Source: Trypanosoma brucei (lineage: Eukaryota). From it: 64,000 nucleotides of DNA. The stretch's first letter is position 1. Every line of letters begins with the position of its first letter. Where the stretch lies: NCBI GenBank assembly GCA_000002445.1, contig CM000208.1, positions 3,990,026 through 4,054,025 on the forward strand. Direction: 5' to 3'. Below are positions 3,715 through 60,370 of this stretch, piece after piece. Below the pieces are notes generated by a model. The model saw only the letters and a list, made by a program, of their open reading frames with translations, was not told where the DNA came from and made no database searches. The translations under genes were made by a program, and so were the position numbers.

Positions 3715-4300
<586 letters not shown>

Positions 4301-17015: not shown

Positions 17016-18695
17016 ATTAAAAGAGAGCACGGGGACTTTTATTAACAGAGCAAACGCAAAAAGACAAAGTATATTATGTAGATATAATATGCGTAGTTTA
17101 ATACACAAAACGCGGCTGTTACCGTCATCATATAAAAGAATATGGAGGAGAAAGATGTTTTACTGTACAAGCCAACTGATTTATTACGTTATTCATGTAA
17201 GAAACGAAATAAAAAAGAAGGAAGCAACTACGGAATTAAACAAGGTTATAAGTGAAAGCATATCATAGAAAGAAATGATAAATCCGGAGGAGATGATGCT
17301 CCGTGTTTCTAACAAAAGTGGATAGACGCTGCTTTAGTGATGATGGTGGATACTTTAGTTTATAATTTGATTATGAATCATAATATTCATTTATAAAATA
17401 ATATAAAGAGGAACGGAATGAAGAAGTGATTGGATAGCTGTAAGGAAATATTAAAGTCTTCTTTCCATAAGATATAGTATTAATAGTCAACATTTGTGGG
17501 CAAAAATATAATATTATTTGAAGGAGGATTTTTAAAACTATGATTGCTAGTGAATTAGTGTGAAAATTAAAAGACGAAATTTATGGCCTAAAACGCTTGA
17601 AATAGCCCATACATAAACATAATTAAGAACTTTATGAAGTGGACAAAACGTTCTTAATTATGCTCCTTCAATTCCGTATTGGTACACTGGGGAAACGTTA
17701 AGAGCTCTAAAGGAGCTTTTAATTAATATAAAAAATTGTTTACTAATGCAAGAATAACAGAACGTATTGGCGAAAGAAAACCAACGAACAACGCAGTTTC
17801 CATCTGCGAATTACATAGTCTGAGACCCAGGTGAAAGAAAACGAAGCAATATTATAGACAGTAGGAGCAGTAGGCGAACTGTATTCATAAAAACACGTTG
17901 TTCTTTTATTTCAGTAGAAGAATTTGGGAATGAAACTATACAAAATGAACACATTAACAGCCATAAATGATGAATTATGAGATATAAAAAGTTTCATAAT
18001 GTTTTGGTGAGATAAGAGTCTGGAATTCTTGATTGCATATGGGAATTTGAAAGTTGACGATAGAGAATAGTTAAAATTTTATAAATGGATGTAACTTAGA
18101 GTTTTGGATTACAGAACAAGCCTTCATCTGTCAACAATTTTTTATACACTAAACATACGTGTCACATAAAAAATCCCGGCTGCAGTATCATTTATGACAA
18201 CAAGACCATATAAAGTCGCAGTGAATTCAAAACTTAAAAAAATCTACAAAGCACATCCAATGGAGGAGTTGGCTTCTGAACTACGAGGACCTCCAATTAA
18301 ATAAGAGACTAGAAATGTAGCTAAAAAGAAAACAGCTGCACTTAGCTCAGCGACGGAGATATGGTATGACTGAATTAGCCGCGAAACTGGCTGTAAAATC
18401 CATGAAAACTACGGAAGATATTCGCATCGTTTTGTAAAATACAACAGTGTGAAAATGCGGGTAAGTGGCATAAAGACAATAAAGGAGATAGAAGAGATAC
18501 AAAAGATAGAGGGTAATTAATACAGGGGTTGTTTTGGCCGTCACTATAACCGAATGAAGCCGCTCTCTAAGCCCAGAGCACAGCGTGACTCTAAATAGGC
18601 TACGCATCCCCAAGGGTGCAAAATTCGTTACTCCTCTTTTTTTCTTTTCAATTACAACCGCAGACCCAGGGAAAGAGACTACCATCAATTCACAA

Positions 18696-20201
18696 ATGAC
18701 AGCAGCAATCCAATTTCTTGTAGCAGCATGCGCCGTGATAAGCGTCGCACGACCCGACGACACTAAGCCAGCCAATGTCATGACAACAGCAACTTCGGCG
18801 GCACTCGTTCTTTCAGACGTAACAGCTCAGATGGCGGAGGCCCTAACACCTGCGTCAGCAGAAGCAGACAAACTAAGACAGGCGCTCGCGCAAGCGGCCG
18901 GAGCAGCACTTTACGACAATAGTCGACTCGGCACGGCGGCACTACCGGTCGCAATAGTTCTCTCTAAGCGGCTCACAGCATGGACGCAAGGGAGGCTGGA
19001 ACTGGCACCGCGACTAATACGAGCAGTGGCCAAACTAGCAAATCTCACAGGCCACCAATTCGATGCGGCATTGATGCAGGACCTCCGTATACCGAATATT
19101 GACACCGGAAACACGGACCCACAAACGGCAGCGGCGGCGTCAAATCTCTATGTAACAGCTGGAGACAACACTTTCAGCAGCAAATCAGTAACAGCTTTCA
19201 ACAAAGAGCGCGCCCAAAAACACGAGTGGATAAAGCCCGCGAACTTCGAAAGCTTAAATATATTCCTTCCAAATCCGAAAACCAGGGACACGGGGACGGC
19301 AGCAGCGCCGACCATCGGCAAAGAACAAAACGACGGCGGCAACAAGTGCAAAAATGGAGACGTGACAACAGACGCCGACGAGCAAGGCGGCGAAATCTGT
19401 GTCATTGGAGGAACGGTCGTCAATACGGAAAAGATAACAATAACCAAGGGAAGTAACAACTTCGGAAACCCCGAGGGCGAGGCTTTCAACGACGGCAATT
19501 TCGAACATCACGCGCGGAGCGCCGTCGCGACAGCCTACGCAGTATTAAAGGAGCTAACACCACCGCCCACCTTCGACATCGATAATGCAGAAAGCTTTAA
19601 AGCTGACACCGACTTCAAGGCGGCGGTAGGCGCAATTTTTGGCAATCTCGACAAAAAAACGAGCTTAGCAGCAGACGACGACAAAATTACAACCATAATC
19701 AAAAACATCTACGGAGAAGGTACCGAAACGAAAACCAAGTTCTGGGAGAAACTGAAAACGATCAAAAAGCCATCAAAAATACTGGGCGAAGATGCTTCAG
19801 GGGATATAACAACCGTATCGGACTTAGGCACAGCATTCAAACTGCTTTTGGAGACAAAAGTCAAGGAAAGCAAACACAAACAACAAGCGGCCGCCCCTGT
19901 AACCGCGACTACAGGAAGTGAGAAAGAAACAGAAACCAAAAAAGAAGACGAATGCAAAAAGCATAAAACAAGCGAAGATTGCAAAAAGGAAAAAGGTTGT
20001 GATTTTGATGATAAAAAGCCTGACGGTGAAAGATGCTTTCCTAAAGTTGAAACTGAAAGAAAAGATGAAAAGTCATTTTCTAGCAATTTGAGAGTTTCTG
20101 TTTCTCAGATATTTGCTGCGTTCTTTTGGTTGCATTTTAATCATTTTTGTTTCTATAAAATTTTTATGATTTTTGCTACTCTGATATATTTTAACACGTA
20201 A
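18696..20201 (+). CDS. VSG: VSG (type B N-terminal domain) with an atypical read-through C-terminus
   Basis: Start MTAAIQFLVAACAVISVA lies inside the 538-aa ORF 18585-20201. The N-terminal domain is long and Ala-rich. The C-terminal domain reads ECKKHKTSEDCKKEKGCDFDDKKPDGERCFPK. The stop at the canonical position is missing, so the ORF continues through a hydrophobic tail and through a perfect 16-mer TGATATATTTTAACAC at 20181-20196. Confidence 0.7.
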   Translation: MTAAIQFLVAACAVISVARPDDTKPANVMTTATSAALVLSDVTAQMAEALTPASAEADKLRQALAQAAGAALYDNSRLGTAALPVAIVLSKRLTAWTQGRLELAPRLIRAVAKLANLTGHQFDAALMQDLRIPNIDTGNTDPQTAAAASNLYVTAGDNTFSSKSVTAFNKERAQKHEWIKPANFESLNIFLPNPKTRDTGTAAAPTIGKEQNDGGNKCKNGDVTTDADEQGGEICVIGGTVVNTEKITITKGSNNFGNPEGEAFNDGNFEHHARSAVATAYAVLKELTPPPTFDIDNAESFKADTDFKAAVGAIFGNLDKKTSLAADDDKITTIIKNIYGEGTETKTKFWEKLKTIKKPSKILGEDASGDITTVSDLGTAFKLLLETKVKESKHKQQAAAPVTATTGSEKETETKKEDECKKHKTSEDCKKEKGCDFDDKKPDGERCFPKVETERKDEKSFSSNLRVSVSQIFAAFFWLHFNHFCFYKIFMIFATLIYFNT

Positions 20202-21284: not shown

Positions 21285-21375
21285 TTATGAATTTCAGTTG
21301 TGGTGATAATAATGATAATAATAATAATAGGAGAGTGTTGTGAGAATGTATATACTAATGTTATAAGGACATTAG
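21285..21375 (+). repeat. 70-bp repeat (1 copy). This is the 5' boundary of duplicated cassette copy 1.
   Basis: gtggtgataataatgataataataataataggagagtgttgtgagaatgtatatactaatgttataaggacattagtc. Confidence 0.85.
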
Positions 21376-23172
21376 TCAAGACTAAATAGGTGGGGAAAAT
21401 AGAACTAGACAAAACAGTGGTTAGTGTGCTGTAGGAGTAAATTAGTGGGAGATTACAAGAAATATTATTGAAAGAAACTTAAAGAATACAAATGAAGAGG
21501 GGGGTATGGAATTGTGCAGTTTAAGGCGTACAGACGGCGGCAACAATAACTATACACGTGAACACGATAGAGGAGAAAGTAAGAGAGACAAAATCTACTG
21601 TACAGAACAAGTGAAGGCACTACATTATACGCATTGATAGAAACAGTATGCAAAAATGAGGAAATAAAAAGCGGAGTAAAATAAGAAAAGGTGTGGCAAA
21701 TGACCACGGATGACAGTAGCACAGAAGGAGAAAGGGATTTTGCTCCACATTTCACACATAAATTGATAGATGCTACTGAAGAGATAATACTGATTTTAAT
21801 TTTAAATTTGATGATGCATCCTAATATTACGATTTAAAGATTGTAATGTACGAAGGGGTAATAATTTTCAGGTCACATTGAAGTCTTTTATCATATATTT
21901 TAACAGCCAATAACATTTGTGGCCAATAATTTAAGATAAGTAAATTTTTAAGCTTTAACTACTGATGAACTAGTGTGGACAGAAAAAATTAACAAAAAGC
22001 AGAAGCTGCTTAAAATGAAACATTTATGTACCTTTATAGAAAAATTGTGAAGTACGATAAGTTTTCAATTACTCTAATACAATTCAGCATTGGTGTACTG
22101 GCTAAAAACTAAGACCTTTGAAGGAGCGAGTAATTCATATAAAATTGGTTGCCAATGCACAACAATTAAGAATATTAATAAAACAATAGCATAGATAAAG
22201 GCGCTTCTTGTCCACAAATTTCCTAGGCTTAACATTCGACGAGCCAACTTGTAGCGAAGCAAAAACAAGAAGGAGGGAAAATCGTATCCGTGAACAATTA
22301 ACACCGTTACTTTGTTTTTCCAGGAGCATAGATTAAACTGTATAAAATTGAACCAACTAGCAGCCAAAATGGTTAAAGTGTAGATACAGAAAGTTTTCAA
22401 ATAATTAGAGACATAGAGGATTGAATGAGGGAGCGTATATGGAAATTTAATAGATGATGACAAATACGTGACAAAATGTCATAAATGGAAGTAGATTGGA
22501 GTTTTAATTACAAAGTGAACTGGAACCTATCAACAATTGCTTCTCCGCTAAAAAAAAGACGTATCAAAAATAAGTCCAGTATCAGTATCGAACACAAAAA
22601 AATAAAAGTCATAGAAAATGCAAAAACTCTCATAATATATGAAGCGCAACTAAATAAAAGATTATCTCCAGTTGTCGAACGAGAAATACAAGCTTAAGCA
22701 ATGAGGACTGCAATGGAATCGGCCGGCAGACAGAAAGGGGTTAGAAAGAGGTGGGTGATCTTAGTAGCGTAAATCGTTTTGAAACAAGTACTAAGAGGTA
22801 TGATCACTGGAAAAGATATTCCTGTGGTGTGATGGCCTGCAAGTGTGGGAAATCAAATAAGTTTAACATAGAATAAATAGAGGAGATAAGTTCAATAGAA
22901 GAGAAAGTTTCTTCCTTAATTAGACGAATAAATTTAAAATAACAGCAGAATTTAACAAGAGTCTGAAAAAAATGCAACCAGAACAAAAACTTCCCCCTGA
23001 CGAAATCACAGGCAACCTTGGAAAACCAAACCAGAACAGAGTTACTCGTCAATGCTATCAATTCGAATACCAAAGAAGTAAGAGACACTTTTCCTGTTTT
23101 TTAAAAACAAAAAGAAGCACCTAAAGGCAACTCAGCACGACCTCAAACCAGACGTTAATACAGTAAGGACGC

Positions 23173-24665
23173 ATGGCGGCTAGCAGGCTAACGGTAGTTC
23201 TCGTCTGTTACTATATCGCAGGGCAAACATCGGCCCAAACCACGGAAGACACTGCAAACAGCGCCTCTAAAACGCCCTGTACACTAAATGCATACTACAG
23301 AGCTATAGAAAGCAAACTAACAAGTTGGATAAACGACGCAGCAGCCGCGCCGCAAAAATTGAACCTGCAGCTAAATGAATTGCAGTTGGCGGCGCTAAAA
23401 CACGCAGGCACAAAAAAAGGGGTTTCGTACACAGTACTAGCGGCAATCATCCGAAGGCGCCAAGCAGGCGCGATCACCTACACACAAACGGCAGTACCAA
23501 AGTTTGCAGCGGCCCTAGAACTAGTAGCCACAAAAAGGGCAGAAACTCTAGTCTTAACAGGCGCAGCGGCTGCTACCACATCATCAGCGGTTAAACACGA
23601 GCAGGCGACCGCCGAACTTACCAAAGTATTGATGCAGGGAACCGGCAACAACAACGTCGGCTGCAAAGTAACGACAACGCCTACTATAGTAACTCAAACA
23701 AACTGCATTTCAGAGGCGACGGACGTCACTAACGCACAGAAAATAGCAGACAACCTCAAGACATGAAAAAAATGGCGATAATAAAGCAGACGGCCATGAC
23801 GCTACCCGAAGTAACCGCGCTCATAGAGGCACGAGGAACGATCAACAATCCCTCTCAATGGCTAGCCGGCACCAGCGCAACTCACTGCGAGCAGAATGCC
23901 AGCCCACAAGGCGCGACCGAAGCGCAACACGCCGTAGCGGCCCAGAAAATAAAGCTAACTGCAAAGACCACACCAACAATCGAAACGCTAGCAGACCTCA
24001 CACAAGCTCAACAGCAACAGCAACCTGCCGGCACCGCCGACACAACAGCGCTACTAACAAGCGACAGCGACCTAGCAACGGCTCTAACAGCAGCAACAGC
24101 GGCACAAAGCGAACAGCCGGGAACACTAGCGACCGAAGCACTAGAGGCCCTAGCAGGGGAGCCAGAGGCCACGGACATGTACAACTTTATGCGGCAAAGC
24201 ACAGGAGCAGGAAGCAAAAAGACCCCAACAGCAAAAGAGGTTGCAAATTTAGTTTTTGGCACTGCAACAGCCACAGTAGACAAAGCCTTTTTGCAACCCC
24301 TCAGCACGGACGCAGTTTCTATCCCAACAGCCGGCAACGACATCAAAACGAACATAAAAGCAATTGCAGTCCAAGAAGGTTTCGAACAAGCAATGGCTTA
24401 TTACTATGTTCAGAACATGCAAAAGCTAACAAAAGCTGTAGAAGGAGTCAAAAAAGAAGAAAAAGAAAAAGCAGATGCAACAGAAAAAACAGAAGAAAAG
24501 AAAGACGGGGAGACAAAAGAGGAGTGTACAGGCACCGTTGAAACTGATTGTGACAAGACAAAATGCACTTGGAATAAGGAAAAGAATGAGTGCAAAGTCA
24601 AAGAAAGTGCATATATTTCATCTGTGACTAAAGTCCCTCTTTTGCTTGCATTTTTGCTTCTATAA
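23173..24665 (+). pseudogene. VSG: VSG, copy 1 of a tandemly duplicated cassette; single-base frameshift near 23757
   Basis: ORF 23173-23766 (MAASRLTVVLVCYYIAGQTSA...) joins ORF 23763-24665 in the +1 frame. The sequence ...ctcaagacatgaaaaaaatg has lost a g relative to copy 2 (ctcaaggacatgaaaaaaatg). The C-terminal half is nearly identical to copy 2 and ends VTKVPLLLAFLLL. Confidence 0.9.
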
Positions 24666-24954
24666 TTAAGTTTTTAAAAGATTTTTGATCAATCTTATGA
24701 AACTCATAAAATTTGGTATTTTGACAGGATTTTCTAAAAAGGTGCAAATTAAGAAATTTTGAGAAAAAAAGTTAACATTTTCTCAAATATGTAAGAAACT
24801 GTCCTTTGGATGCAACATAATATGGTGATAATGCATTCAAAGAGATTAAAGTTATAAGAATGTTGCTATTTTGGTTCATATTATTTTATTTGTGTACATT
24901 AAGAGAAATTTACGGTTATCATAGCAATAGTTATAGCATCAAGAAAGAAATATA

Positions 24955-25245
24955 AGTAGTGACACTGATAACACTGATGAAACTGATGATGATAATGATA
25001 GGAGAGTGTTGTGAGTGTGCATATACAAATATTATAATAAGAGCAGTAATAATAATAATGATAATGATGATGATAATAATAGGAGAGTGTTGTGAGTGTG
25101 CATATACAAATATTATAATAAGAGCAGTAATAATAATAATAATGATAATGATAATAGTAATGATAATAATAATGATGATAATAATAATGATGATAGGAGA
25201 GTGTTGTGAGTGTGTATATACTAATGTTATAAGGACATTAGTCAA
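24955..25245 (+). repeat. 70-bp repeats (3 copies). This is the 5' boundary of duplicated cassette copy 2.
   Basis: The unit ggagagtgttgtgagtgtgcatatacaaatattataataagagcagtaataataataatgataatga occurs three times. Confidence 0.9.
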
Positions 25246-27038
25246 GACTAAATAGGTGGGGAAAATAGAACTAGACAAAACAGTGGTTAGTGTGCTGTAG
25301 GAGTAAATTAGTGGGAGATTACAAGAAATATTATTGAAAGAAACTTAAAGAATACAAATGAAGAGGGGGGTATGGAATTGTGCAGTTTAAGGCGTACAGA
25401 CGGCGGCAACAATAACTATACACGTGAACACGATAGAGGAGAAAGTAAGAGAGACAAAATCTACTGTACAGAACAAGTGAAGGCACTACATTATACGCAT
25501 TGATAGAAACAGTATGCAAAAATGAGGAAATAAAAAGCGGAGTAAAATAAGAAAAGGTGTGGCAAATGACCACGGATGACAGTAGCACAGAAGGAGAAAG
25601 GGATTTTGCTCCACATTTCACACATAAATTGATAGATGCTACTGAAGAGATAATACTGATTTTAATTTTAAATTTGATGATGCATCCTAATATTACGATT
25701 TAAAGATTGTAATGTACGAAGGGGTAATAATTTTCAGGTCACATTGAAGTCTTTTATCATATATTTTAACAGCCAATAACATTTGTGGCCAATAATTTAA
25801 GATAAGTAAATTTTTAAGCTTTAACTACTGATGAACTAGTGTGGACAGAAAAAATTAACAAAAAGCAGAAGCTGCTTAAAATGAAACATTTATGTACCTT
25901 TATAGAAAAATTGTGAAGTACGATAAGTTTTCAATTACTCTAATACAATTCAGCATTGGTATACTGGCTAAAAACTAAGACCTTTGAAGGAGCGAGTAAT
26001 CCATATAAAATTGGTTTCCAATGCACAACTAATTAATAATATTAATAAAACAATAGCATAGATAAAGGCGCTTCCTGTCCACAAATTTCCTAGGCTTAAC
26101 ATTCGACGAGCCAACTTGTAGCGAAGCAAAAACAAGAAGGAGGGAAAATCGTATCCGTGAACAATTAACACCGTTACTTTGTTTTTCCAGGAGCATAGAT
26201 TAAACTGTATAAAATTGAACCAACTAGCAGCCAAAATGGTTAAAGTGTAGATACAGAAAGTTTTCAAATAATTAGAGATATAGATGATTGAATGAGGTAG
26301 CGTATATGGAAATTTAATAGATGATGACAAATACGTGACAAAATGTCATAAATGGAAGTAGATTGGAGTTTTAATTACAAAGTGAACTGGAACCTATCAA
26401 CAATTGCTTCTCCGCTAAAAAAAAGACGTATCAAAAATAAGTCCAGTATCAGTATCGAACACAAAAAAATAAAAGTCATAGAAAATGCAAAAACTCTCAT
26501 AATATATGAAGCGCAACTAAATAAAAGATTATCTCCAGTTGTCGAACGAGAAATACAAGCTTAAGCAATGAGGACTGCAATGGAATCGGCCGGCAGACAG
26601 AAAGGGGTTAGAACGAGGTGGGTGATCTTAGTAGCGTAAATCGTTTTGAAACAAGTACTAAGAGGTATGATCACTGGAAAAGATATTCCTGTGGTGTGAT
26701 GGCCTGCAAGTGTGCGAAATCAAATAACTTTAACATAGAATAAATAGAGGAGATAAGTTCAATAGAAGAGAAAGTTTCTTCCTTAATTAGACGAATAAAT
26801 TTAAAATAACAGCAGAATTTAACAAGAGTCTGAAAAAAATGCAACCAGAACAAAAACTTCCCCCTGACGAAATCACAGGCAACCTTGGAAAACCAAACCA
26901 GAACAGAGTTACTCGTCGATGCTATCAATTCGAATACCAAAGAAGTAAGAGACACTTTTCCTGTTTTTTAAAAACAAAAAGAAGGCCGTAGAGAGAGTTC
27001 AGCACTCGGTGGAAGCTGGATTATTACACTCATACAAA

Positions 27039-28532
27039 ATGCCAACAAAAAGGCTCGCGTTAGTTCTCGTCTTCTGCTATCTCACAGACCAAACGACATG
27101 TGAAACAACGGAAGACACTGCAAACCGCGCCGCCAAAACGCCCTGTACACTAAGTGCATACTACAGAGCTATAGAAACCAAACTAACAAGCTGGATAAAC
27201 GAAGCAGCAGCCGCGCCGCAAAAATTGAACCTGCAGCTAAATGAATTGCAGTTGGCGGCGCTAAAGCACGCAGGCACAACCAAAGGAATTTCGTACACAG
27301 TACTAGCGGCAATCATCCGAAGGCGCCAAGCAGGCGCGATCACCTACACACAAACGGCAGTACCAAAGTTTGCAGCGGCCCTAGAACTAGTAGCAGCAAA
27401 AAGGGCAGAAACTCTAGTCTTAACAGGCGCAGCGGCTGCTACCACATCATCAGCGGTTAAACACGAGAAGGCAACCGCCGCACTCACAAAAGTATTGATA
27501 CAGGGCAGCGGCAGCAACAACGTCGGCTGCAAAGTAACGGCAACGCCTACTATAGTAACTCAAAAGAGCTGCGATTCAGAGGGGACGGCAATAACCAACG
27601 CACAAAAAATAGCAGAGAACCTCAAGGACATGAAAAAAATGGCGATAATAAAGCAGACGGCCATGACGCTACCCGAAGTAACCGCGCTCATAGAGGCACG
27701 AGGAACCATCGACGACGCCTCCCAATGGCAAACAGGAACAGGCGAACCTCACTGCGAACAGAATGGAAGCCCACAGGCCGCAAGCGCAGCACAGCACGCC
27801 GTATCAGCACAACAAATAAAACTAACTGCAAAAGCCACACCAACAATCGCAGCGCTAGCAGACCTCGCACAAGCGCAACAGCAACAGCAGCCTGCCAACC
27901 GCGCCGACACAACAGCGCTACTAACAAGCGACAGCGACCTAGCAACGGCTCTAACAGCAGCAACAGCGGCACAAAGCGAACAGCCGGGAACACTAGCGAA
28001 CGAAGCGCTGGAGGCCCTAGCAGGGGAACCAGAGGCCACGGCCATGTACAACTTTATGCAGCAAAGCACAGGAGCAGGAAGCAAAAAGACCCCAACAGCA
28101 AAAGAGGTTGCAAATTTAGTTTTTGGCACTGCAACAGCCACAGTAGACAAAGCCTTTTTGCAACCCCTCAGCACGGACGCAGTTTCTATCCCAACAGCCG
28201 GCAACGACATCAAAACGAACATAAAAGCAATTGCAGTCCAAGAAGGTTTCGAACAAGCAATGGCTTATTACTATGTTCAGAACATGCAAAAGCTAACAAA
28301 AGCTGTAGAAGGAGTCAAAAAAGAAGAAAAAGAAAAAGCAGATGCAACAGAAAAAACAGAAGAAAAGAAAGACGGGGAGAAAAAAGAGGAGTGTACAGGC
28401 ACCGTTGAAACTGATTGTGACAAGACAAAATGCACTTGGAATAAGGAAAAGAATGAGTGCAAAGTCAAAGAAAGTGCATATATTTCATCTGTGACTAAAG
28501 TCCCTCTTTTGCTTGCATTTTTGCTTCTATAA
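27039..28532 (+). CDS. VSG: VSG, intact (copy 2 of the tandem duplication), about 497 aa
   Basis: Uninterrupted ORF. Signal peptide MPTKRLALVLVFCYLTDQTTC, type A-like N-terminal domain, C-terminal domain ECTGTVETDCDKTKCTWNKEKNECKVKE, and GPI signal SAYISSVTKVPLLLAFLLL. The upstream 1.8 kb (25245-27008) duplicates 21375-23172. Confidence 0.9.
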   Translation: MPTKRLALVLVFCYLTDQTTCETTEDTANRAAKTPCTLSAYYRAIETKLTSWINEAAAAPQKLNLQLNELQLAALKHAGTTKGISYTVLAAIIRRRQAGAITYTQTAVPKFAAALELVAAKRAETLVLTGAAAATTSSAVKHEKATAALTKVLIQGSGSNNVGCKVTATPTIVTQKSCDSEGTAITNAQKIAENLKDMKKMAIIKQTAMTLPEVTALIEARGTIDDASQWQTGTGEPHCEQNGSPQAASAAQHAVSAQQIKLTAKATPTIAALADLAQAQQQQQPANRADTTALLTSDSDLATALTAATAAQSEQPGTLANEALEALAGEPEATAMYNFMQQSTGAGSKKTPTAKEVANLVFGTATATVDKAFLQPLSTDAVSIPTAGNDIKTNIKAIAVQEGFEQAMAYYYVQNMQKLTKAVEGVKKEEKEKADATEKTEEKKDGEKKEECTGTVETDCDKTKCTWNKEKNECKVKESAYISSVTKVPLLLAFLLL

Positions 28533-28814
28533 TTAAGTTTTTAAAAGATTTTTGATCAATCTTATGAAACTCATAAAATTTGGTATTTTGACAGGATTTT
28601 CTAAAAAGGTGCAAATTAAGAAATTTTGAGAAAAAAAGTTAACATTTTCTCAAATATGTAAGAAACTGTCCTTTGGATGCAACATAATATGGTGATAATG
28701 CATTCAAAGAGATTAAAGTTATAAGAATGTTGCTATTTTGGTTCATATTATTTTATTTGTGTACATTAAGAGAAATTTACGGTTATCATAGCAATAGTTA
28801 TAGCATCAAGAAAG

Positions 28815-28995
28815 AAATATAAGTAGTGACACTGATAACACTGATGAAACTGATGATGATAATGATAGGAGAGTGTTGTGAGTGTGCATATACAAATATT
28901 ATAATAAGAGCAGTAATAATAATAATGATAATGATGATGATAATAATAGGAGAGTGTTGTGAGTGTGTATATACTAATATTATAATAAAAGTGGT
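28815..28995 (+). repeat. 70-bp repeats (2 copies)
   Basis: gatgatgataatgataggagagtgttgtgagtgtgcatatacaaatattataataagagcagtaataat... occurs twice. Confidence 0.9.
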
Positions 28996-30402: not shown

Positions 30403-32013
30403 GTGCAGCAAGAGATGCACAAGTCCAAGATATTCAACCTCATAACTAAAATTCTGCTGACTCTTGCAGTCATCAAAACCATCGAGTCAGCGAGCAAGGG
30501 CCCGATAACACATGCAGCGTGGAGCCCGCTCTGCACACTGAGCAAAGATAAGCAAAAGCTATACAACAGGGCAAACAAACTTCAAGACGACATCAGCAAC
30601 TTCTTCCAAACTGCGGCGAAGGCGTCCATTAAAGCGGCAATCGTCGCGGTCAAACTAAACTCAGCAGATGCAATGAAAGCGGCGATGGGTCTACAAGCAA
30701 AAATAAAGGCAGATGTGACTGCGAAAATGGCTGCAGCTGAGCAGTGTCGCACAATATCAACGGTGGTGACGCTGAGGTCAGCTTACTTACACGGGCGGAT
30801 AGCTGAATTCATCGAAATGATGACAGCCATGAGGGGAAAGACCAACGAGCACGCCTGTTTAAGCAAGCAAGGCGACGGTACCGACAGAGCCGCAGGCGAG
30901 ACGATCACCAAGCAACAAGCGACCTGCAAGCTTCATTCGGAGGAACTAACAAAACATAGCGAGGAGCTAACCGAACTCACGGCAACAGGATACCCAAAAC
31001 TAACACTGCCCACGGGCCTCACGACCAGCGAACAAGGAGGAGACACCAACCCCAACTGCATTTTCCTAACGACAACCGCAAACGAGCTAAACGGCAACGG
31101 CGGTTTCAAAGAAGCGATACCGCTGGCGGCGGGGTACTTGCTTAGAAAAGAGGACATGACCGCAAACTCAAAACAGGCGATTAATCAACTTCAAACCGTT
31201 GATGAGCCGGCAAGCGCCAAAACGACTGTAAGGCCCTACGTAGAACTTTGGAAGGCGTTCAAGCAACTGACAAACTGCGAAGCGATGTTCAGCGCGGCGT
31301 ACACACTGCCAACAGCGGAAGCATTAGTGGACAGCCCGGAAGTCAAAACGGCAATAAAGAATCACTTCCTACGAAAAGAAGGCCAGTATGAAGACAGTAA
31401 AGACAGCAAGGACGTCAACCCGATAGTAAAGCGTTTGTATAAACCAGACGATGAACACTATCCCAAAAAGTTCTGGCAGGAAACCGCCAAAAAGGACACA
31501 CCCCAAGCAGCCACTGGGAAAGCAGAGCTTTCTAAACTAGACGACATAGTGACTGAAGAAGAGTTAGCCCAGGTTCTGAGCTATTACACAAACATGCAGA
31601 TCCAAAATTTACACAAAGAACTAAAAGAAGCTCAAGAAAAAGCCTCACAGGCGAACCAGAGCGACGCTGCAGCCAAAGCAGCAGAAGACGCTTGCAATAA
31701 ACTAGATAACGAAGAAAAATGCAACAACGAGAAAAAGTGCAGTTATGACGATTCTAAGGAAAGTGGCAAAAAGTGCAAATATAATGCCACAAAAGCAAAA
31801 TCAAAAGTAAATGGTGTCCCTGTAACACAAACTCAAGATGGAGGAGCAATAACTGTAAACTGTGGCCAACATGCCGACAAGACTAAATGTGAGGAAAAAA
31901 CAAGGGAAAAACAACCCCTGTTTGTGTATGGAGAAAAGGCAAAGAGGGTGAACCTGATCAAGATAAAGAAATGTGCCGAAATGGTAGTTTCGTCAATAAA
32001 AAATTTACTCTGA
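30403..32013 (+). CDS. VSG: VSG (type A N-terminal domain). The C-terminal domain is frameshifted; the canonical end continues in another frame to about 32080.
   Basis: 536-aa ORF with signal peptide MQQEMHKSKIFNLITKILLTLAVIKTIESA. The C-terminus ...KCEEKTREKQPLFVYGEKAKRVNLIKIKKCAEMVVSSIKNLL* is out of frame. The +2 frame reads ...CVWRKGKEGEPDQDKEMCRNGSFVNKKFTLIAAVFMSFVCF. Confidence 0.85.
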   Translation: MQQEMHKSKIFNLITKILLTLAVIKTIESASKGPITHAAWSPLCTLSKDKQKLYNRANKLQDDISNFFQTAAKASIKAAIVAVKLNSADAMKAAMGLQAKIKADVTAKMAAAEQCRTISTVVTLRSAYLHGRIAEFIEMMTAMRGKTNEHACLSKQGDGTDRAAGETITKQQATCKLHSEELTKHSEELTELTATGYPKLTLPTGLTTSEQGGDTNPNCIFLTTTANELNGNGGFKEAIPLAAGYLLRKEDMTANSKQAINQLQTVDEPASAKTTVRPYVELWKAFKQLTNCEAMFSAAYTLPTAEALVDSPEVKTAIKNHFLRKEGQYEDSKDSKDVNPIVKRLYKPDDEHYPKKFWQETAKKDTPQAATGKAELSKLDDIVTEEELAQVLSYYTNMQIQNLHKELKEAQEKASQANQSDAAAKAAEDACNKLDNEEKCNNEKKCSYDDSKESGKKCKYNATKAKSKVNGVPVTQTQDGGAITVNCGQHADKTKCEEKTREKQPLFVYGEKAKRVNLIKIKKCAEMVVSSIKNLL

Positions 32014-32254
32014 TTGCTGCTGTCTTTATGAGTTTTGTATGCTTTTATAATTCAAGCGTTTTGCGTATTTTTGCTCAATTTTGTGGAATTTATGAAGTTT
32101 GATATACTTTAACGCTTTTGTAAAGCTTTTGAAAAATATGAAATTTTTAAAATATTGTGGCTTATGAGTATAAAGTAGTAGAGTGATATGGTATGAAAGA
32201 TGGGTAAAATTCTAAATTTTTCATATTTTGTTTATTGTAGGGATGTTGCTTAAG

Positions 32255-32430
32255 GTCATTGTAGGAATAATGATGATGATAAGATAGTTGTGAGTGTGTA
32301 TATATACGAATTTTATGATAGGAGCAGTAATAATGATAATAATGATAATAATAATAGTGATAATAATAATAGGAGAGTGTTGTGAGTGTGTATATATACG
32401 GATATTATAATAAGAGCAATGATGGCAGAG
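32255..32430 (+). repeat. 70-bp repeats (about 2 copies)
   Basis: ggaataatgatgatgataagatagttgtgagtgtgtatatatacgaattttatgataggagcagtaataatgataat...aggagagtgttgtgagtgtgtatatatacggatattataataagagc. Confidence 0.85.
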
Positions 32431-34875: not shown

Positions 34876-35119
34876 TTGCTGCTGTCTTTATGAGTTTTGT
34901 ATGCTTTTATAATTCAAGCGTTTTGCGTATTTTTGCTCAATTTTGTGGAATTTATGAAGTTTGATATACTTTAACGCTTTTGTAAAGCTTTTGAAAAATA
35001 TGAAATTTTTAAAATATTGTGGCTTATGAGTATAAAGTAGTAGAGTGATATGGTATGAAAGATGGGTAAAATTCTAAATTTTTCATATTTTGTTTATTGT
35101 AGGGATGTTGCTTAAGGTC

Positions 35120-35200
35120 ATTGTAGGAATAATGATGATGATAAGATAGTTGTGAGTGTGTATATATACGAATAATATAATAAGAGCAATGATGGTGTAT
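35120..35200 (+). repeat. 70-bp repeat
   Basis: ggaataatgatgatgataagatagttgtgagtgtgtatatatacgaataatataataagagcaatgatgg. Confidence 0.8.
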
Positions 35201-35945
35201 AATAACTACAAACCTAAGAGAAAGGCACTTAAAACAGTGGCAAAGTGAAATGGGAGTACATAATGGAGTCAAATAGAATACAAGAAATATTATTATTTAA
35301 AAGTTGCAGAAACGGAAAGTAAAGATGATAGAATGTGGTCATGTTAAAACATATACGGGACTATTGCATCATGATATCGACAGACTTGATGAAGGGTACA
35401 ATTAAGGAAAGAGTGAGTCCAGTATAGAATTATAATGCAGGCGCTACTTAATCATTAGTAATATAAGCATAAGAAAAGAGGAAGAAACATAATATGGAAT
35501 GAGACAATGCAATTAGCAAAAGCACAACGCAGAAAGAAAATTGTACAGGGGGAGATTGTGCTCCACATTTCACACACAAATGGATAGATGCAATTTCGGA
35601 AATGGTGGAGGCAGTGGTGTTCAACTTTATTGTGCAGTAACATGTCAAACATTAAACTCAGGTAGCTGAAAATGATGGCCTGCACATGGGTGTTTTCCAT
35701 AAAAGCAGAAAATCAGGAGCTCTAGAGTCCATTTGTTACCTGATTGTGAGTGTTTAGTTAGAGTGCTTCAAACGAATGTAAATTTTAATTTGAGGTGTAA
35801 AGAATACCGTGCCAGAGGAAATGGCAAATCACAAACAAAAAACATCAAAATGACTTACTTGGTTAACCATAATGAACTCAACTTTAACTGTCACTTTGGT
35901 AAGTGGACCTAAATCAAAGTCAATTACCAGGTTCATCAGCGGATT

Positions 35946-43679: not shown

Positions 43680-43760
43680 CATTTTATTGATAATAATGAT
43701 AATAATAATAATGATATTAAGAGAGTTTTGTGAGTGTGCATAATATTATAACAAGAGCAC
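43680..43760 (+). repeat. 70-bp repeat
   Basis: gataataatgataataataataatgatattaagagagttttgtgagtgtgcataatattataacaagagcac. Confidence 0.8.
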
Positions 43761-45740: not shown

Positions 45741-45785
45741 GTAGAGTTTCAGCATTAAAAGGATATTTCCCAATTTTATGAAAAT

Positions 45786-51100: not shown

Positions 51101-51479
51101 GTCTGATAGGGGAAGATATATACTTCAGTGTTAAGCTGGTAAACTTCTTAAATGCACTCTTCTTTTCGCCAGAAAATTGGACTCCCACAATAGACACTAA
51201 AAAAATTGATAAACAGACCGCAAATAAAAAGAGAAATGTCGCCATCATGCTAAATATCCACTGACCACATACGATACATTCGGATGAGCACCAGTGGGAT
51301 TTATTTAAAATGATGGAAGGCAATATCCAAATGGGGGATTCCCAAAAAATAAAACTTTATCCAAGCCCTGCAGAAGGGAGTGAATGACAAATTGTGAAGA
51401 TTATAAACATATCATCGAAAAAAGTAGCTGAAATGGAAGCGTATATTGATATATTGAGGTGTGTGCAGGTTAATGAACA

Positions 51480-51660: not shown

Positions 51661-51734
51661 GTACCCTACTAATGAAATGTAGTATGGTAATATGGTATGG
51701 AATGTGAGGGTTATTATGAAATTAATTTATAATT

Positions 51735-51850
51735 TAGTTTGTTTAGAATTATTATATGTATAATAGTTAGTGTTATAAGAATAATAGTAACGAAAACAGT
51801 GATAGAAGAGTGTTGTCAACATGTATATGCTAATATTATGACATAGATAG
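51735..51850 (+). repeat. 70-bp repeat (divergent)
   Basis: gttagtgttataagaataatagtaacgaaaacagtgatagaagagtgttgtcaacatgtatatgctaatattatgac. Confidence 0.7.
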
Positions 51851-53122
51851 CGACGAAGATAAAACAGAAGGGAAAATACAAGCACTTAAAACAATGGCAG
51901 GGTGCAATAGGAGGAAGTTAGTCAGTTGTAGATAGCGTGAGGAATAGTAACATCTCTAAAGGAGTGAAAGAAAGAAATGAAGATAGTATATGCACGGTTT
52001 TAAATACAACCATGCAGGTAGATATCGTAACACGCAAGAAAGGAATGAAGGCAACAATAAGAAAAAAGAGTCCAGTGTGCAGTGCACATACAAAATCGAA
52101 TCTGTACATTATATTCGTAAAGACTGTCAAGGCGAAAAAATGTAAATAAAATGTACAATGAAACAGCTGTACGCGATGCAGCGTAGAACAGAAAAAATTA
52201 TATATCAGGAAGAGAAGACGCCAATAAATTGCTGAATATTAATGAAAAAATAAATGAAACAACTGCTATAGTAGCAACTGTGCATTTTTACCTTATAGTG
52301 GATCCCAAATTTAAGAATTTAACTCACGTGGTGGTTCTCTTTTATAAAATGAATGCGAGGCTTTTGGTTGGAAAAATGAGGAGTTGTAGGGGAACTGTTA
52401 AAGATGAGGAATGAATATGGTTTGGTACATTATACCTGCAGGTAGCTCGAAGTCAGGGTTTTTAAAAGCCCTTACTTGTCAAAAGTTGGTTCTACAGAAA
52501 AAACAATCAAATATTATAAAAAGTGCAACAGTAACCCCAGAAATAGCAAGTAAGGCATATACGCCAAGTATCAAAAAACACAAGCAATCCATGAAATTCA
52601 ACTAACTGCAAGATTAGCATAAGCAGTATTACAGGAGATACAATAAAAACCGAAAATAGAAATGACACTAAATTCCAAGATAGTGCAGTTTAGTAAGTGA
52701 CGGATGACAGAAGCAGCTAAATTAGTGGCTAAACTCGTACGAAGACAAACAGCAACTGGAAAAGATATTCCTGTGGTGTGATGGCCTGCATGTGTGGGAA
52801 ATCAAATAAGTTTAACATAGAATAAATAGAGGAGATAAGTTCAATAGAAGAGAAAGTTTCTTCCTTAATTAGACGAATAAATTTTAAATATAACAACAAA
52901 ATTTAAAAAGTCGGAAGAAATTGAAATCAGAACAAAAGAGTTTTACCCCTGAAAAAAACACCGACACCTCTAAAAAGCCAAACAGAAGCAGAATTACTCG
53001 TCAATGCTATTAATGTGAATAGAAAAGAATTAAGAGACACTTTTCCTGTTTTTAAAAACAAAAAGAAGGACGTAGAGAGAGTTCAGCACTCGGTGGAAGC
53101 TGGATTATTACACTCAGACAAA

Positions 53123-54360
53123 ATGCCAGCAAAAAAGTTTGCGGTAATTCTCGTCTGCTGCTACCTCACAGACCAAACGGCGTCTGAAACGACGGAGGAC
53201 ATTGCAAACGCCACCGCGACGACACCTTGTACACTGAGTGCATACTACAGAGCTATAGAAACCAAACTAACTAACTGCATAAACGATGCGGCAGCCGCTC
53301 CTCAAAAATTAAACACGAAGCGGGCGCCGAAGCCCTAATGAAAATTCTAACACAAAGCGGCGGGGGAAACAACGTGGGCTGCAAAGTAACGACGACGTCG
53401 ACGTTAACCACTGAGACCTAATTAGAAAGGGGAAGAAATGGAAGTAATAAAGGCCCAAAAGATAGGAGAAAGTCTCAAAACAATCACAAAACTGACGATC
53501 TACAAAAAGGAAAGCCTCAAGATGCCGGACCTAAGCGCGATAATCGAGGCCCAGGCACCATAGCAGGCGACACCAACTAGAAAGCAGGGAACGGCGACAT
53601 GCAATTCCAAAAATCCATGGCAGTGGAAGCAGTGGCCCAAGCCCAGAACACGGTAGCAGTCTAGCAGATAAAACTAACAGCAAAGGTGGAGGCAACAATC
53701 GAAACATTAGCTGATATCATCCAGGCAGAGCCACAAGAACAAAACAGGGGTCACAGCGAAAAACTGCCGCCACAGACGCCGCCAAAAACCCACCGGTAGT
53801 ACTGATGGACGAACAGCTAGAAACGATAGCAGTGGATTCAGAAGCAACAGCTACGCACACCTTCATGCAGAAGCCTACGGGTGCTGGCCTCAAAAAGTCC
53901 CCCTAAGCAAAAGAAGTCTCAATTTTGATTTTTGGCACTGCAACTGGCGCAGTGGACAACGTTTTTCTGTAACCCGTCAGAACGGACGCAGTTTCAGTCC
54001 CTACAGCTGGAAACGACATCAAAACGAACATAAAAGCAATTGCAGTCCAAGAAGGTTTCTAACAAGCGATGGCTTATTACTAAGCACTTAACAGGAAAAA
54101 ACAGCAGCTAATGGAGCAGGAACAAAGCCTGAAGGAGACGAAAAAACAGATACAACAGAAGAAATAGTAAAAATAAAGAGGGGGGATAATAAATCCGCAA
54201 CTGCAAATTGCACCAGCTATTCAACACAAGATGCCTGTACAAAAGGGAAGAATTACAAATGGGAAAATAACGCATTCAAGGATTCCAGTTTGCTGATCAA
54301 TAAGAAATTGGCTCTGATGGTTTCTGCTGCATTTGTGAGTTTTCTGCTTTTAATTTTTCA
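53123..54360 (+). pseudogene. VSG: VSG pseudogene: third, heavily decayed member of the 23173/27039 family, with a different C-terminal domain and GPI tail
   Basis: Upstream 52740-53100 matches 22790-23170 and 26660-27010 (ctggaaaagatattcctgtggtgtgatggcctgca...gacgaataaat). The N-terminus MPAKKFAVILVCCYLTDQTASETTEDIANATATTPCTLSAYYRAIETKL matches copy 2. After that there are many in-frame stops, frameshifts and an internal deletion. It ends CTKGKNYKWENNAFKDSSLLINKKLALMVSAAFVSFLLLIF. Confidence 0.85.
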
Positions 54361-54544
54361 CACTCTAGTTCTTTCTATTTGGTATATTTTAAAACGTTTG
54401 TAAAATCTTTCCAAAATGTAAAGATTTTGATAATATGAAGTTTTGGCTTTAAATTTACCCGAGAGTTTTATGTATTAATTTGATAAGTGTGAAAAATGTG
54501 TGCTCATCTCAATTTGTTTAATTTATTAGATATTAGGAGTAATT

Positions 54545-60335: not shown

Positions 60336-60370
<35 letters not shown>

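What the first reader, a model, noticed from the sequence alone, without database searches (positions are those of the whole stretch)
21285..28532. Tandem 3.8-kb VSG cassette duplication: one copy intact, one inactivated by a 1-bp deletion, and mosaic divergence confined to the N-terminal domain
Cassette 1 (70-bp repeat 21285, upstream 1.8 kb, VSG 23173-24665) and cassette 2 (70-bp repeats 24955, identical upstream 1.8 kb, VSG 27039-28532) are direct tandem copies. The upstream regions and the C-terminal roughly 300 codons are nearly identical. The N-terminal roughly 200 codons are only about 90% identical: MAASRLTVVLVCYYIAGQTSAQ versus MPTKRLALVLVFCYLTDQTTCE, with scattered substitutions. Copy 1 carries a single missing g at about 23757 (aagacatg versus aaggacatg) that splits it into two ORFs. 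The 70-bp repeat copy number also differs, 1 versus 3. A third, heavily decayed relative with the same upstream block and a different C-terminus lies 26 kb away at 52740-54360. The pattern indicates a recent duplication followed by segmental conversion, or diversifying change restricted to the exposed N-terminal domain. This is the raw material for mosaic VSG formation.
Basis: seen in the sequence. Interest (0 to 1): 0.55.

Follow-up and report, generated by a model that had tools for sequence, protein, structure and literature searches.

The report
Tandem VSG cassette duplication, patchily converted
Two neighbouring copies of a silent trypanosome surface-coat (VSG) gene arose by a recent 3.9-kb tandem duplication, after which patches from related VSG genes were pasted into the antigen-coding half of one copy, a real but well-known way this parasite diversifies its antigen archive.

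Summary
Window 21306-25121 and 25169-28988 are direct tandem copies (3,863-bp unit, 95.9% identical) in a subtelomeric VSG array of Trypanosoma brucei brucei TREU927, about 35 kb from a telomere.

Divergence is strongly clustered: 136 of 160 differences lie in c1 23118-24190 (12.7% versus 0.87% elsewhere). A 2-state HMM resolves four tracts of 23-195 bp. Synonymous divergence is equally clustered (dS 0.26-0.33 versus 0), and 28 of the 55 non-coding bases before the ATG differ, so this is imported sequence, not diversifying selection.

In the 5' tract copy 2 switches sharply at 23117/23118 from copy-1-like to resembling the decayed third relative at 52755-54395 (permutation p <= 0.0005). Copy 1 is collinear with EATRO1125 VSG 1125.265, so the intact copy 2 is probably the recipient, though this is not proven.

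The 1/3/2 count of 70-bp repeats is the duplication junction itself. Copy 1 lacks one G at 23760/23761, outside the A7 run; reads were not available. Both copies have only a degenerate 3'UTR 16-mer.

This is a known kind of event in an annotated genome, so interest is low to moderate.

The parts
21296..21366 (+). J0: single 70-bp repeat at the 5' edge of cassette 1. Homology between the two units begins at 21306, inside its TAA/TGA-rich part.
21306..25168 (+). Duplication unit 1 (3,863 bp): 70-bp repeat, 1.8-kb upstream block, VSG pseudogene, 3' flank, two 70-bp repeats.
   Evidence: Self-BLAST and global alignment
21891..21906 (+). 16-mer-like relic TCATATATTTTAACAG inside the upstream block (twin at 25757-25772). 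Probably the remnant of an older VSG 3' end carried within the duplicated unit.
   Evidence: 10 hits at <=2 mismatches versus 0.17 expected; no VSG protein similarity around it
22806..23117 (+). Family-specific conserved upstream block shared with the third relative. c1-c2 99.0%, c1-c3 86.2%, c2-c3 85.2%. Ends in a polypyrimidine tract plus AG (putative trans-splice acceptor region).
23118..23268 (+). High-divergence tract 1 (55 mismatches in 151 columns): 55 nt of 5'UTR, the signal peptide and the first mature residues. Copy 2's version (26985-27134) is like the third relative (c2-c3 96% in the 55 non-coding nt).
23173..24665 (+). Copy 1 VSG pseudogene: two ORFs (23173-23766 and 23763-24665) split by one missing G. 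Collinear with EATRO1125 VSG 1125.265 (90.5% aa).
23400..23422 (+). High-divergence tract 2 (5 mismatches in 23 bp).
23602..23759 (+). High-divergence tract 3 (24 mismatches in 159 columns). Its last 'mismatch' is the frameshift indel.
23760..23761 (+). Frameshift site in copy 1: one G of GG is missing (CTCAAG^ACATG). Copy 2 (G at about 27626) and P0001 read K-D-M here.
23840..24034 (+). High-divergence tract 4 (41 mismatches in 195 bp). Six further sparse differences at 24133-24193 mark the 3' limit of divergence (codon ~341).
24714..24727 (+). Degenerate relic of the VSG 3'UTR 16-mer (TGGTATTTTGACAG, 5 edits) about 50 nt after the stop codon. Identical relic in copy 2 at 28581-28594.
24968..25232 (+). 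J1: three 70-bp repeats between the copies. The first two match J2; the third matches J0.
25169..28988 (+). Duplication unit 2.
27039..28532 (+). Copy 2 VSG, intact 497-aa ORF. Carries 50 of the 58 amino-acid differences as states unique to it. Its divergent tracts lie at 26985-27134, 27266-27288, 27468-27626 and 27707-27901.
28835..28990 (+). J2: two 70-bp repeats after copy 2. Homology with unit 1 ends at 28988, inside the second repeat.
52755..54395 (+). Third relative (c3), a decayed pseudogene: upstream block 52755-53122; codons 1-64 at 53123-53314 (77% aa to copy 2); about codons 65-133 deleted; three reading frames; a different C-terminal type; 16-mer-like sequence at 54380.

Best explanation
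This is a silent array of VSG cassettes in the right-hand subtelomere of a T. brucei brucei TREU927 megabase chromosome.

Step 1 (anatomy shown, mechanism inferred). A complete 3,863-bp cassette (70-bp repeat, 1.8-kb upstream block, class-A VSG, 3' flank, 70-bp repeats) was duplicated in tandem by recombination between the 70-bp repeats that flank it. Unequal sister-chromatid exchange or a similar event is the likely route.

Step 2 (shown that the sequence has a different ancestry; donor and direction inferred). After the duplication the background diverged by only about 0.7%. One copy then received three or four patches of 23-195 bp from related, lower-identity VSG family members by segmental gene conversion. 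The patches span from 55 nt upstream of the ATG to codon ~341, which covers the 5'UTR, the signal peptide and the N-terminal domain. The 5'-most patch begins exactly where a family-specific conserved upstream block ends, and that block would supply the 5' homology. Copy 2 is most likely the recipient. Its patch resembles the third relative at 52.7 kb, but at 87% identity, so that relative is not the immediate donor.

Step 3. Copy 1 carries a 1-bp deletion and is a pseudogene.

Step 4 (inferred from the literature). Both copies have a degenerate 3'UTR 16-mer. Neither is likely to be expressed well as a whole cassette. They would contribute to antigenic variation as N-terminal-domain donors, through mosaic formation and/or 3' donation in an expression site.
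For: - Tandem duplication and its junctions.
- Clustering: 136 differences in 1,073 bp versus 24 in 2,748 bp, Fisher p = 2.7e-53. HMM background 0.7% versus tract 22.5% mismatch, lnL -510 versus -664.
- Different ancestry rather than selection: dS 0.33 and 0.26 in the divergent blocks versus 0.05 in the cool block and 0 of 100 synonymous sites in codons 342-497; dN/dS 0.37-0.54; 28 of 55 non-coding bases before the ATG differ.
- Recombination breakpoint: informative sites group c1 with c2 at 43 of 43 sites upstream of 23078. From 23118 they group c2 with c3 at 45 sites versus 19 for c1 with c2. Max chi-square 52.2, permutation p <= 0.0005. c2-c3 identity is 96% in 23118-23172 versus 85% in the block just upstream.
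- Discordant trees with EATRO1125 VSG 1125.265. In codons 342-497, c1-c2 is 99.4% and each is about 94% to P0001. In codons 1-341, c1-P0001 is 89% but c2-P0001 is 76%. Unique residues: c1 6, c2 50, P0001 39.
- Several copy-2-specific states (GSGSNN, WQTGTG) recur in more distant family members P0002-P0004.
- VSG identity. TREU927 origin.
- The 16-mer is absent from both 3' flanks but present 3' of eight other units, and it is essential for VSG mRNA stability (PMC5698767).
- The same kind of clustered mismatch in TREU927 VSG triplets has been attributed to conversion by lower-identity donors, with a mismatch density of about 0.255 inside tracts (PMC3472502).
Against: - No donor at near-identity was found for any tract. 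The third relative is only 87% identical to copy 2 in tract 1 and uninformative for tracts 3 and 4. Two protein-database searches found nothing closer than P0001.
- Direction therefore rests on parsimony with one orthologue from another strain, known only as protein.
- The tracts (up to 195 bp) are much longer than the 14-25 nt average inferred by Gjini et al. What I call several patches could be one long (~1.08 kb) conversion from a donor with patchy similarity.
- Neither the tandem arrangement nor the 1-bp deletion could be checked against reads.
Confidence: 0.8

Rival explanations
1. Same events, opposite direction. The ancestral cassette was copy-2-like. After duplication, copy 1's 5'UTR and N-terminal domain were converted by a TREU927 orthologue of VSG 1125.265 located elsewhere, possibly in a single ~1.08-kb event. 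The 1-bp deletion was either imported with the tract or created at its edge.
For: - Copy 2 and the anciently separated third relative are collinear through the upstream block, 5'UTR and signal peptide. Copy 1's 55 nt before the ATG are unrelated to both (50-54% identity), so copy 1 looks like the rearranged arrangement at 23117/23118.
- The frameshift lies at the 3' edge of tract 3.
- One donor could explain every tract, because copy 1 matches P0001 in all of them.
Against: - Copy 1 is collinear with P0001 along its whole length at a fairly even ~90%, and has only 6 unique residues versus 50 for copy 2. That is simplest if copy 1 is unrecombined.
- No second 1125.265-like protein from TREU927 appears in the database, although pseudogenes would not be listed there.
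Confidence: 0.3
2. Old paralogues with homogenised flanks. Two adjacent family members that had long been about 85-88% identical were made nearly identical in their upstream 1.8 kb, codons ~57-143 and C-terminal/3' regions by later conversion between them (concerted evolution). The N-terminal patches are what was left unconverted.
For: - Conversion between neighbouring cassettes does happen in this window. The otherwise different VSGs at 30415-32013 and 33337-34875 share a 576-bp 3' block at 97.7%.
- Background divergence is not perfectly even: 0.76% upstream, about 2.7% in the cool coding block, 0.2% downstream.
Against: - Near-identity covers the entire unit from 70-bp repeat to 70-bp repeat, including 1.7 kb of non-coding upstream sequence that no other cassette in the window shares.
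- The J1 = J2 + J0 junction is what a whole-unit duplication predicts.
- No copy-2-type orthologue was found among EATRO1125 VSGs.
Confidence: 0.12
3. In-situ diversification: hypermutation and/or positive selection acting on the exposed N-terminal domain after duplication, with no foreign sequence involved.
For: Differences are concentrated in the N-terminal domain, which is the antibody target.
Against: - dN/dS is below 1 and synonymous divergence is equally clustered.
- The densest divergence (51%) is in non-coding 5'UTR, and the signal peptide is not exposed.
- Copy 2's states match the third relative at 44 of 56 differing sites in 23097-23296.
- The genes are silent array copies, so selection cannot act on them directly.
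Confidence: 0.02
4. Assembly artefact. Two haplotypes (or a mis-joined clone overlap) of a single cassette were placed in tandem through the repetitive 70-bp region, and/or the 1-bp deletion is a sequencing error.
For: - The join lies in repetitive 70-bp/TAA-rich sequence.
- Subtelomeres of this diploid can differ between homologues (my own knowledge).
- No reads were available, and none of the exact-protein lookups found an independent assembly.
Against: - J1 contains a complete second repeat with its own 3' half and a long TAA/TGA tract, present in neither J0 nor J2, so it is not a simple overlap of the two ends.
- The deleted base is in a GG dinucleotide, not in the A7 run.
- Frameshifted VSGs are common in this archive: 42% of the N-terminal-domain donors identified in TREU927 infections were pseudogenes (PMC3708902).
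Confidence: 0.05

Closest known systems
High-identity VSG pairs/triplets of the TREU927 silent archive, diversified by point mutation plus short gene-conversion imports (Marcello & Barry 2007 as cited in, and Gjini et al. 2012, PMC3472502)
   Same: Same genome and same pattern. Closely related array VSGs, mostly pseudogenes, show sparse isolated mismatches on a low background plus clusters of dense mismatch attributed to conversion from lower-identity archive donors. The within-tract mismatch density here (22.5%) is close to their estimate of about 0.255.
   Different: - This pair is physically tandem, with the whole cassette duplicated, including the 70-bp repeats and the 1.8-kb upstream block.
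- Tracts are 23-195 bp rather than the 14-25 nt average.
- One tract extends into the 5'UTR.
- For one tract a relative of the donor lineage can be pointed to in the same array.
- This pair is not among their five triplets: no Tb10 identifiers occur in the paper.
Mosaic VSG formation by segmental gene conversion during infection (Hall et al. 2013, PMC3708902)
   Same: Both involve segmental conversion among family members sharing at least ~73% nucleotide identity. Pseudogene donors are used, and 3' donation supplies the C-terminus and 3' end. c1 and c2 (89% nt identity in the N-terminal domain, one frameshifted, both with a defective 16-mer) fit the profile of such donors.
   Different: Those mosaics are assembled in the expressed gene during infection. 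Here the mosaic is fixed in a silent array copy in the germline archive. I could not map c1 or c2 to any donor in their Table S1.
Duplicative transposition (gene conversion) of a VSG cassette bounded upstream by 70-bp repeats (established knowledge; background in PMC8612549's abstract)
   Same: The copied unit is delimited by 70-bp repeats, the known 5' recombination substrate for VSG cassettes.
   Different: The copy was placed next to its source inside the array rather than into a telomeric expression site. Here the 3' boundary is also a 70-bp repeat rather than the VSG 3' end or the telomere.
Class A VSG N-terminal domain of the VSG13/VSG397/VSGsur structural group (PMC10501684; PDB 8b3e)
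   Same: A profile of c2 and its four homologues matches VSG397 over profile positions 11-426 at E = 2.5e-18.
   Different: Pfam Trypan_glycop, VSG_B and Trypan_glycop_C do not detect c1 or c2. A TREU927 relative is annotated 'VSG, atypical'. The fold itself was not predicted here.

Membership tests
Variant surface glycoprotein (VSG) gene of Trypanosoma brucei | N-terminal domain homologous to known VSG N-terminal domains | tested here: met
   The family profile (A1) hits PDB 8b3e VSG397 at E = 2.5e-18 over 416 positions. The nearest database proteins are named VSG: 1125.265 at 82% and 1125.4195 at 56%. Pfam VSG models give no hit, and a single-sequence phmmer search against PDB gives none.
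Variant surface glycoprotein (VSG) gene of Trypanosoma brucei | N-terminal signal peptide, cysteine-containing C-terminal domain and hydrophobic GPI-anchor signal | tested here: inconclusive
   By inspection only: a hydrophobic N-terminus (MPTKRLALVLVFCYL...), four Cys at 452/460/465/474 and the tail ...SAYISSVTKVPLLLAFLLL. No predictor was run. A TREU927 relative with a similar tail is annotated 'atypical', and Hall et al. note atypical GPI signals of uncertain function.
Variant surface glycoprotein (VSG) gene of Trypanosoma brucei | Cassette context: 70-bp repeat(s) upstream, in a subtelomeric array oriented towards the telomere | tested here: met
   70-bp repeats lie at 21296-21366, 24968-25232 and 28835-28990. 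Fifteen further repeat sites occur on the + strand. GGTTAG x34 lies at 63796-64000.
Variant surface glycoprotein (VSG) gene of Trypanosoma brucei | Conserved 16-mer TGATATATTTTAACAC in the 3'UTR (required for functional expression, PMC5698767) | tested here: not met
   No match within 4 edits in either 3' flank. Only a 5-edit relic occurs about 50 nt past the stop codon, while eight other units in the window have it at <=2 mismatches. This argues against c2 being a fully functional VSG, not against VSG ancestry.
Segmental gene conversion (recombinant/mosaic origin of the divergent tracts) | Significant spatial clustering of differences with sharp boundaries | tested here: met
   Fisher p = 2.7e-53. 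HMM delta-lnL = 154, with tracts at 23118-23268, 23400-23422, 23602-23759 and 23840-24034.
Segmental gene conversion (recombinant/mosaic origin of the divergent tracts) | Phylogenetic discordance across a breakpoint with a third sequence | tested here: met
   Triplet c1/c2/c3: max chi-square 52.2, permutation p <= 0.0005, breakpoint between 23078 and 23118. Discordance with P0001 between codons 1-341 and 342-497.
Segmental gene conversion (recombinant/mosaic origin of the divergent tracts) | Identification of the donor at near-identity | tested here: not met
   The best candidate, c3, is 87% identical over tract 1. There is nothing in the window for tracts 3 and 4 and nothing in the protein database. 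The rest of the TREU927 genome was not searchable with these tools.
Tandem duplication via 70-bp repeats | Both ends of the duplicated unit lie in the repeat, and the internal junction is a composite of the outer junctions | tested here: met
   Homology runs from 21306 (inside the J0 repeat) to 25121/28988 (inside the second repeat of J1/J2). J1 is R1 and R2 (as in J2) followed by R3 (as in J0).

The most novel reading that the evidence does not exclude
The 1-bp deletion predates the duplication, so both daughter copies were pseudogenes. Copy 2's reading frame was then restored inside the silent array by the imported conversion tract 27468-27626, whose 3' edge coincides with the frameshift site. 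That would be a documented case of archival 'pseudogene repair' by segmental conversion outside an expression site. It would show that the silent archive itself, not only the expressed copy, is remodelled by tracts of about 150-200 bp, ten times longer than current model estimates.
Probability: 0.25. Interest if true: 0.45.

Novelty: already known. Interest (0 to 1): 0.25.

Why it matters
The locus is a clean, textbook-quality example of how the T. brucei VSG archive evolves. A whole cassette is duplicated through its 70-bp repeats, then related sequence is imported patchwise into the antigenic half of one copy, and frameshift decay follows. The recent duplication gives a near-zero background (0.7%), so the imported tracts, a breakpoint and a donor lineage can be read directly. 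That could help calibrate models of conversion tract length in silent arrays. It does not change current understanding: high-identity VSG pairs, conversion imports and pseudogene donors are all established for this very genome.

Tried and rejected
- Pfam on c1, c2 and the 18585-20201 ORF gave no VSG hit, even at E <= 10 for c2. Single-sequence phmmer against PDB gave only a spurious hit. Both were resolved by the homologue search and the profile search.
- Exact-protein lookups to obtain independent assemblies, annotation or orthologous loci (c2, the 30415-32013 VSG, P0001, P0002) found nothing on record. The frameshift, the tandem arrangement and the orthologue's 5' flank therefore could not be cross-checked.
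- The c1 ORFs and c2 are not in the 15-billion-protein collection.
- A second database search with copy 2's N-terminal domain alone, meant to avoid crowding by C-terminal-domain matches, returned only P0001, so no donor was found.
- Hall et al. Table S1 was read to see whether this pair had served as mosaic donors. Without gene identifiers for c1 and c2 no mapping was possible, and no adjacent Tb10.v4 pair is listed.
- RNA-templated conversion was considered because tract 1 starts at the putative splice-acceptor region. It was rejected: no spliced-leader sequence occurs anywhere in the window, even with 6 mismatches, and the conserved upstream block explains the boundary.
- The third relative as the direct donor was rejected because c2-c3 identity in the tract (87%) is far below the 99% expected from the post-duplication background.
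- Structure prediction was not run, because the profile hit to VSG397 was sufficient for membership.

Full report
**Source and context**

Three ORFs of the window are exact matches to deposited proteins of Trypanosoma brucei brucei TREU927 on a 4,054,025-bp contig: 30415-32013 = EAN78980, 33337-34875 = EAN78981 and 62140-63591 = EAN78982. By its size this is chromosome 10; that is my own knowledge and was not tested.

The window ends in 34 GGTTAG telomere repeats at 63796-64000. Before them lie a B-type VSG (Pfam VSG_B, E = 5.7e-73) and a 45-copy 70-bp-repeat array at 57412-61060. The rest of the window is a head-to-tail array of VSG genes and pseudogenes on the + strand, each preceded by one to a few 70-bp repeats. 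The finding lies about 35 kb from the telomere.

**Checking the observation**

Self-BLAST and global alignment show that 21306-25121 and 25169-28988 are direct tandem copies. Identity is 95.9% over 3,821 columns, with 154 substitutions and four indels, and the period is 3,863 bp.

Copy 1 holds two overlapping ORFs (23173-23766 and 23763-24665). Copy 2 holds one ORF of 497 aa from the ATG at 27039 to 28532. Copy 1 lacks one G of the GG in CTCAAGGACATG, between 23760 and 23761, 5 nt upstream of the A7 run and not inside it. Restoring that G gives a 497-aa ORF collinear with copy 2.

The third relative is real and lies at 52755-54395:
- Its upstream block is 85-86% identical to both copies.
- Codons 1-64 are 77% identical to copy 2.
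- About codons 65-133 are deleted.
- The remaining segments lie in three reading frames.
- It has a different C-terminal type.

**Is it a VSG?**

Pfam's three VSG models do not hit either copy, although they hit the neighbouring genes strongly. A database search nevertheless finds these homologues of copy 2:

| Protein | Source | Identity to copy 2 |
|---|---|---|
| VSG 1125.265 (P0001) | T. brucei EATRO1125 | 82% |
| VSG 1125.4195 (P0002) | T. brucei EATRO1125 | 56% |
| 'VSG, atypical' (P0003) | TREU927 | 39% |
| P0004 | T. equiperdum | 33% |

A profile built from these five sequences matches the solved structure of VSG397 (PDB 8b3e) over 416 positions at E = 2.5e-18. VSG397 is a class A representative (PMC10501684). 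So the gene belongs to a class-A VSG subfamily that Pfam does not detect.

**Distribution of divergence**

Of the 160 differing columns, 136 lie in c1 23118-24190 (12.7%), against 24 in the other 2,748 columns (0.87%); Fisher p = 2.7e-53.

A two-state HMM fits far better than one rate (lnL -510 versus -664). It gives a background mismatch rate of 0.7%, a tract rate of 22.5%, and four coding-region tracts:

| Tract (c1 coordinates) | Mismatches / columns |
|---|---|
| 23118-23268 | 55 / 151 |
| 23400-23422 | 5 / 23 |
| 23602-23759 | 24 / 159 |
| 23840-24034 | 41 / 195 |

A few sparse differences continue to 24193.

But the divergent zone continues to codon ~341, and only codons 342-497 are essentially identical (99.8% nt). 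The divergent zone also begins 55 nt upstream of the ATG.

**Imported sequence or in-situ diversification?**

Four results favour imported sequence.

1. Synonymous divergence is as clustered as non-synonymous divergence. dS is 0.33 (codons 1-56) and 0.26 (codons 144-341), against 0.05 (codons 57-143) and 0 of 100 synonymous sites (codons 342-497). dN/dS is 0.37-0.54.
2. The densest divergence is in non-coding sequence: 28 of the 55 bases before the ATG differ, against 13 of 1,715 further upstream.
3. In a three-way alignment with the third relative, all 43 informative sites upstream of 23078 group c1 with c2. From 23118 on, 45 sites group c2 with c3 and 19 group c1 with c2 (max chi-square 52.2, permutation p <= 0.0005). 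c2-c3 identity is 96% in 23118-23172, against 85% in the block immediately upstream. The run of c3-like sites fades at about 23240.
4. Relationships with the EATRO1125 orthologue are discordant. In codons 342-497, c1 and c2 are 99.4% identical and each is about 94% identical to P0001. In codons 1-341, c1 is 89% identical to P0001 and c2 is 76%. Residues unique to one sequence number 6 for c1, 50 for c2 and 39 for P0001.

In addition, some copy-2-specific motifs (GSGSNN, WQTGTG) recur in the more distant family members P0002-P0004. That is hard to obtain by new point mutation.

**Direction**

Copy 1 is collinear with one known gene at an even ~90% identity and has almost no unique residues. The simplest reading is that copy 1 is the unconverted copy and copy 2, the one with the intact ORF, is the recipient.

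This is not proven. Copy 2 and the anciently diverged third relative are collinear from the upstream block through the 5'UTR and signal peptide, whereas copy 1's 55 nt before the ATG are unrelated to both. A reverse scenario, in which copy 1 was converted by a TREU927 orthologue of VSG 1125.265, therefore remains possible; I put it at roughly 30%.

No near-identical donor was found in the window or in the protein database. The rest of the genome could not be searched with these tools.

**Junctions**

- J0, before copy 1, has one good 70-bp repeat.
- J2, after copy 2, has two.
- J1, between the copies, has three: two that match J2 followed by one that matches J0.

Homology between the units starts inside the J0 repeat and ends inside the second repeat. 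J1 also contains a full second repeat and a long TAA/TGA tract found in neither J0 nor J2, which argues against a trivial assembly join.

**5' boundary**

All three relatives share ...CTTTTCCTGTTTTTTAAAAACAAAAAGAAG and diverge immediately after it. This is a polypyrimidine tract followed by AG, so I infer it is the trans-splice acceptor region. The window contains no spliced-leader sequence, so I read the boundary as the end of the conserved block that supplies 5' homology, not as evidence for an RNA template.

**The frameshift**

The frameshift lies at the 3' edge of tract 23602-23759. P0001 and copy 2 both read K-D-M there, so the deletion is derived. It may have arisen in copy 1 after the duplication. 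Alternatively it arose before the duplication and was repaired in copy 2 by the imported tract. Tracts cover about a third of the coding sequence, so the coincidence is not statistically significant.

**Functional status**

The conserved 3'UTR 16-mer TGATATATTTTAACAC occurs ten times in the window at <=2 mismatches, against 0.17 expected by chance. Eight of these sites lie 3' of VSG units. Neither copy has a match within four edits in its 3' flank; there is only a five-edit relic about 50 nt after the stop codon.

The 16-mer is essential for VSG mRNA stability (PMC5698767). Copy 2 is therefore intact as an ORF but probably not competent as a whole cassette. It would need a 3' end from elsewhere, which 'mosaicism' and '3' donation' provide during TREU927 infections. 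In those infections donors share at least 73% identity, and 42% of N-terminal-domain donors are pseudogenes (PMC3708902). The exact copy 2 protein is absent from the deposited TREU927 protein set. I infer it may be annotated as a pseudogene or atypical gene, but I could not see the record.

**Comparison with what is known**

The TREU927 archive is known to be structured. About 40% of VSGs sit in high-identity pairs or triplets. Clustered mismatches between such relatives have been modelled as conversion imports from lower-identity donors, with a within-tract mismatch density of about 0.255 and a mean tract length of 14-25 nt (PMC3472502).

The present pair fits that picture, with a within-tract density of 22.5%. 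It differs in four respects:
- It is a physically tandem whole-cassette duplicate.
- Its tracts are longer.
- One tract reaches into the 5'UTR.
- A donor-lineage relative is visible in the same array.

**Verdict**

The conversion interpretation is supported and the diversifying-selection alternative is rejected. The event is of a known kind in a published, annotated genome, so interest is low to moderate.

Noticed in passing
window 57412-64000: This is a chromosome end. A 45-copy (~3.6 kb) 70-bp-repeat array (57412-61060) is followed by a B-type VSG (62140-63591 = EAN78982) with an exact 16-mer at 63643, then GGTTAG x34 (63796-64000). A VSG array, not ESAG-like genes, lies upstream, so this telomeric VSG does not look like part of a canonical bloodstream expression site.
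   Followed up: partly
window 55708-57153: A frameshifted paralogue of the telomeric VSG (three reading frames, 57-75% aa identity) sits immediately upstream of the long 70-bp array. This is a second related pair within the window.
   Followed up: partly
window 31768-32342 and 34630-35205: The two adjacent, otherwise different A-type VSGs (EAN78980, EAN78981) share a 576-bp 3' block at 97.7% identity. It covers the last ~80 codons, which give an odd C-terminus ...CAEMVVSSIKNLL with no hydrophobic tail, and a degenerate 16-mer TGATATACTTTAACGC. This looks like a 3' conversion between neighbouring cassettes.
   Followed up: partly
window 21891-21906 and 25757-25772: A 16-mer-like sequence TCATATATTTTAACAG lies about 585 bp downstream of the 70-bp repeat inside the duplicated 'upstream' block. 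It is probably the relic of an older VSG 3' end, though no VSG coding similarity was detected around it.
   Followed up: partly
window 44701-52755: There is a 10.8-kb stretch without a + strand 70-bp repeat (43727-54586). It holds a VSG_B N-terminal fragment (44701-44985, E = 6e-9) and an ORF with a reverse-transcriptase domain (47656-48063, RVT_1, E = 3e-14). A degenerate retroelement is likely inserted between VSG units just upstream of the third relative.
   Followed up: partly
window 18585-20201: A 501-538-aa VSG-like ORF has no Pfam hit. Its reading frame runs through the exact 16-mer at 20182, so the normal stop or C-terminus has been lost. It is not in the protein collection.
   Followed up: partly
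window 11928-12734: A C-terminal fragment related to c2 (34% identity over aa 294-487) has the same C-terminal-domain/tail type (...ECKVKEGAVVISAVIKAPLLLAFLLL). It reads 9 codons past the usual end, and a degenerate 16-mer lies at 12782.
   Followed up: no
window 3776-4249: A near-perfect (ATA)158 microsatellite, 474 bp long, lies next to a 70-bp repeat site.
   Followed up: no
window 27039-27110 versus 23173-23244: The conversion changed the cysteine pattern of the signal-peptide region. Copy 1 and P0001 have Cys12; copy 2 has Cys13 and Cys21. The mature-domain cysteines (36, 164, 178, 239, 452, 460, 465, 474) are unchanged.
   Followed up: no
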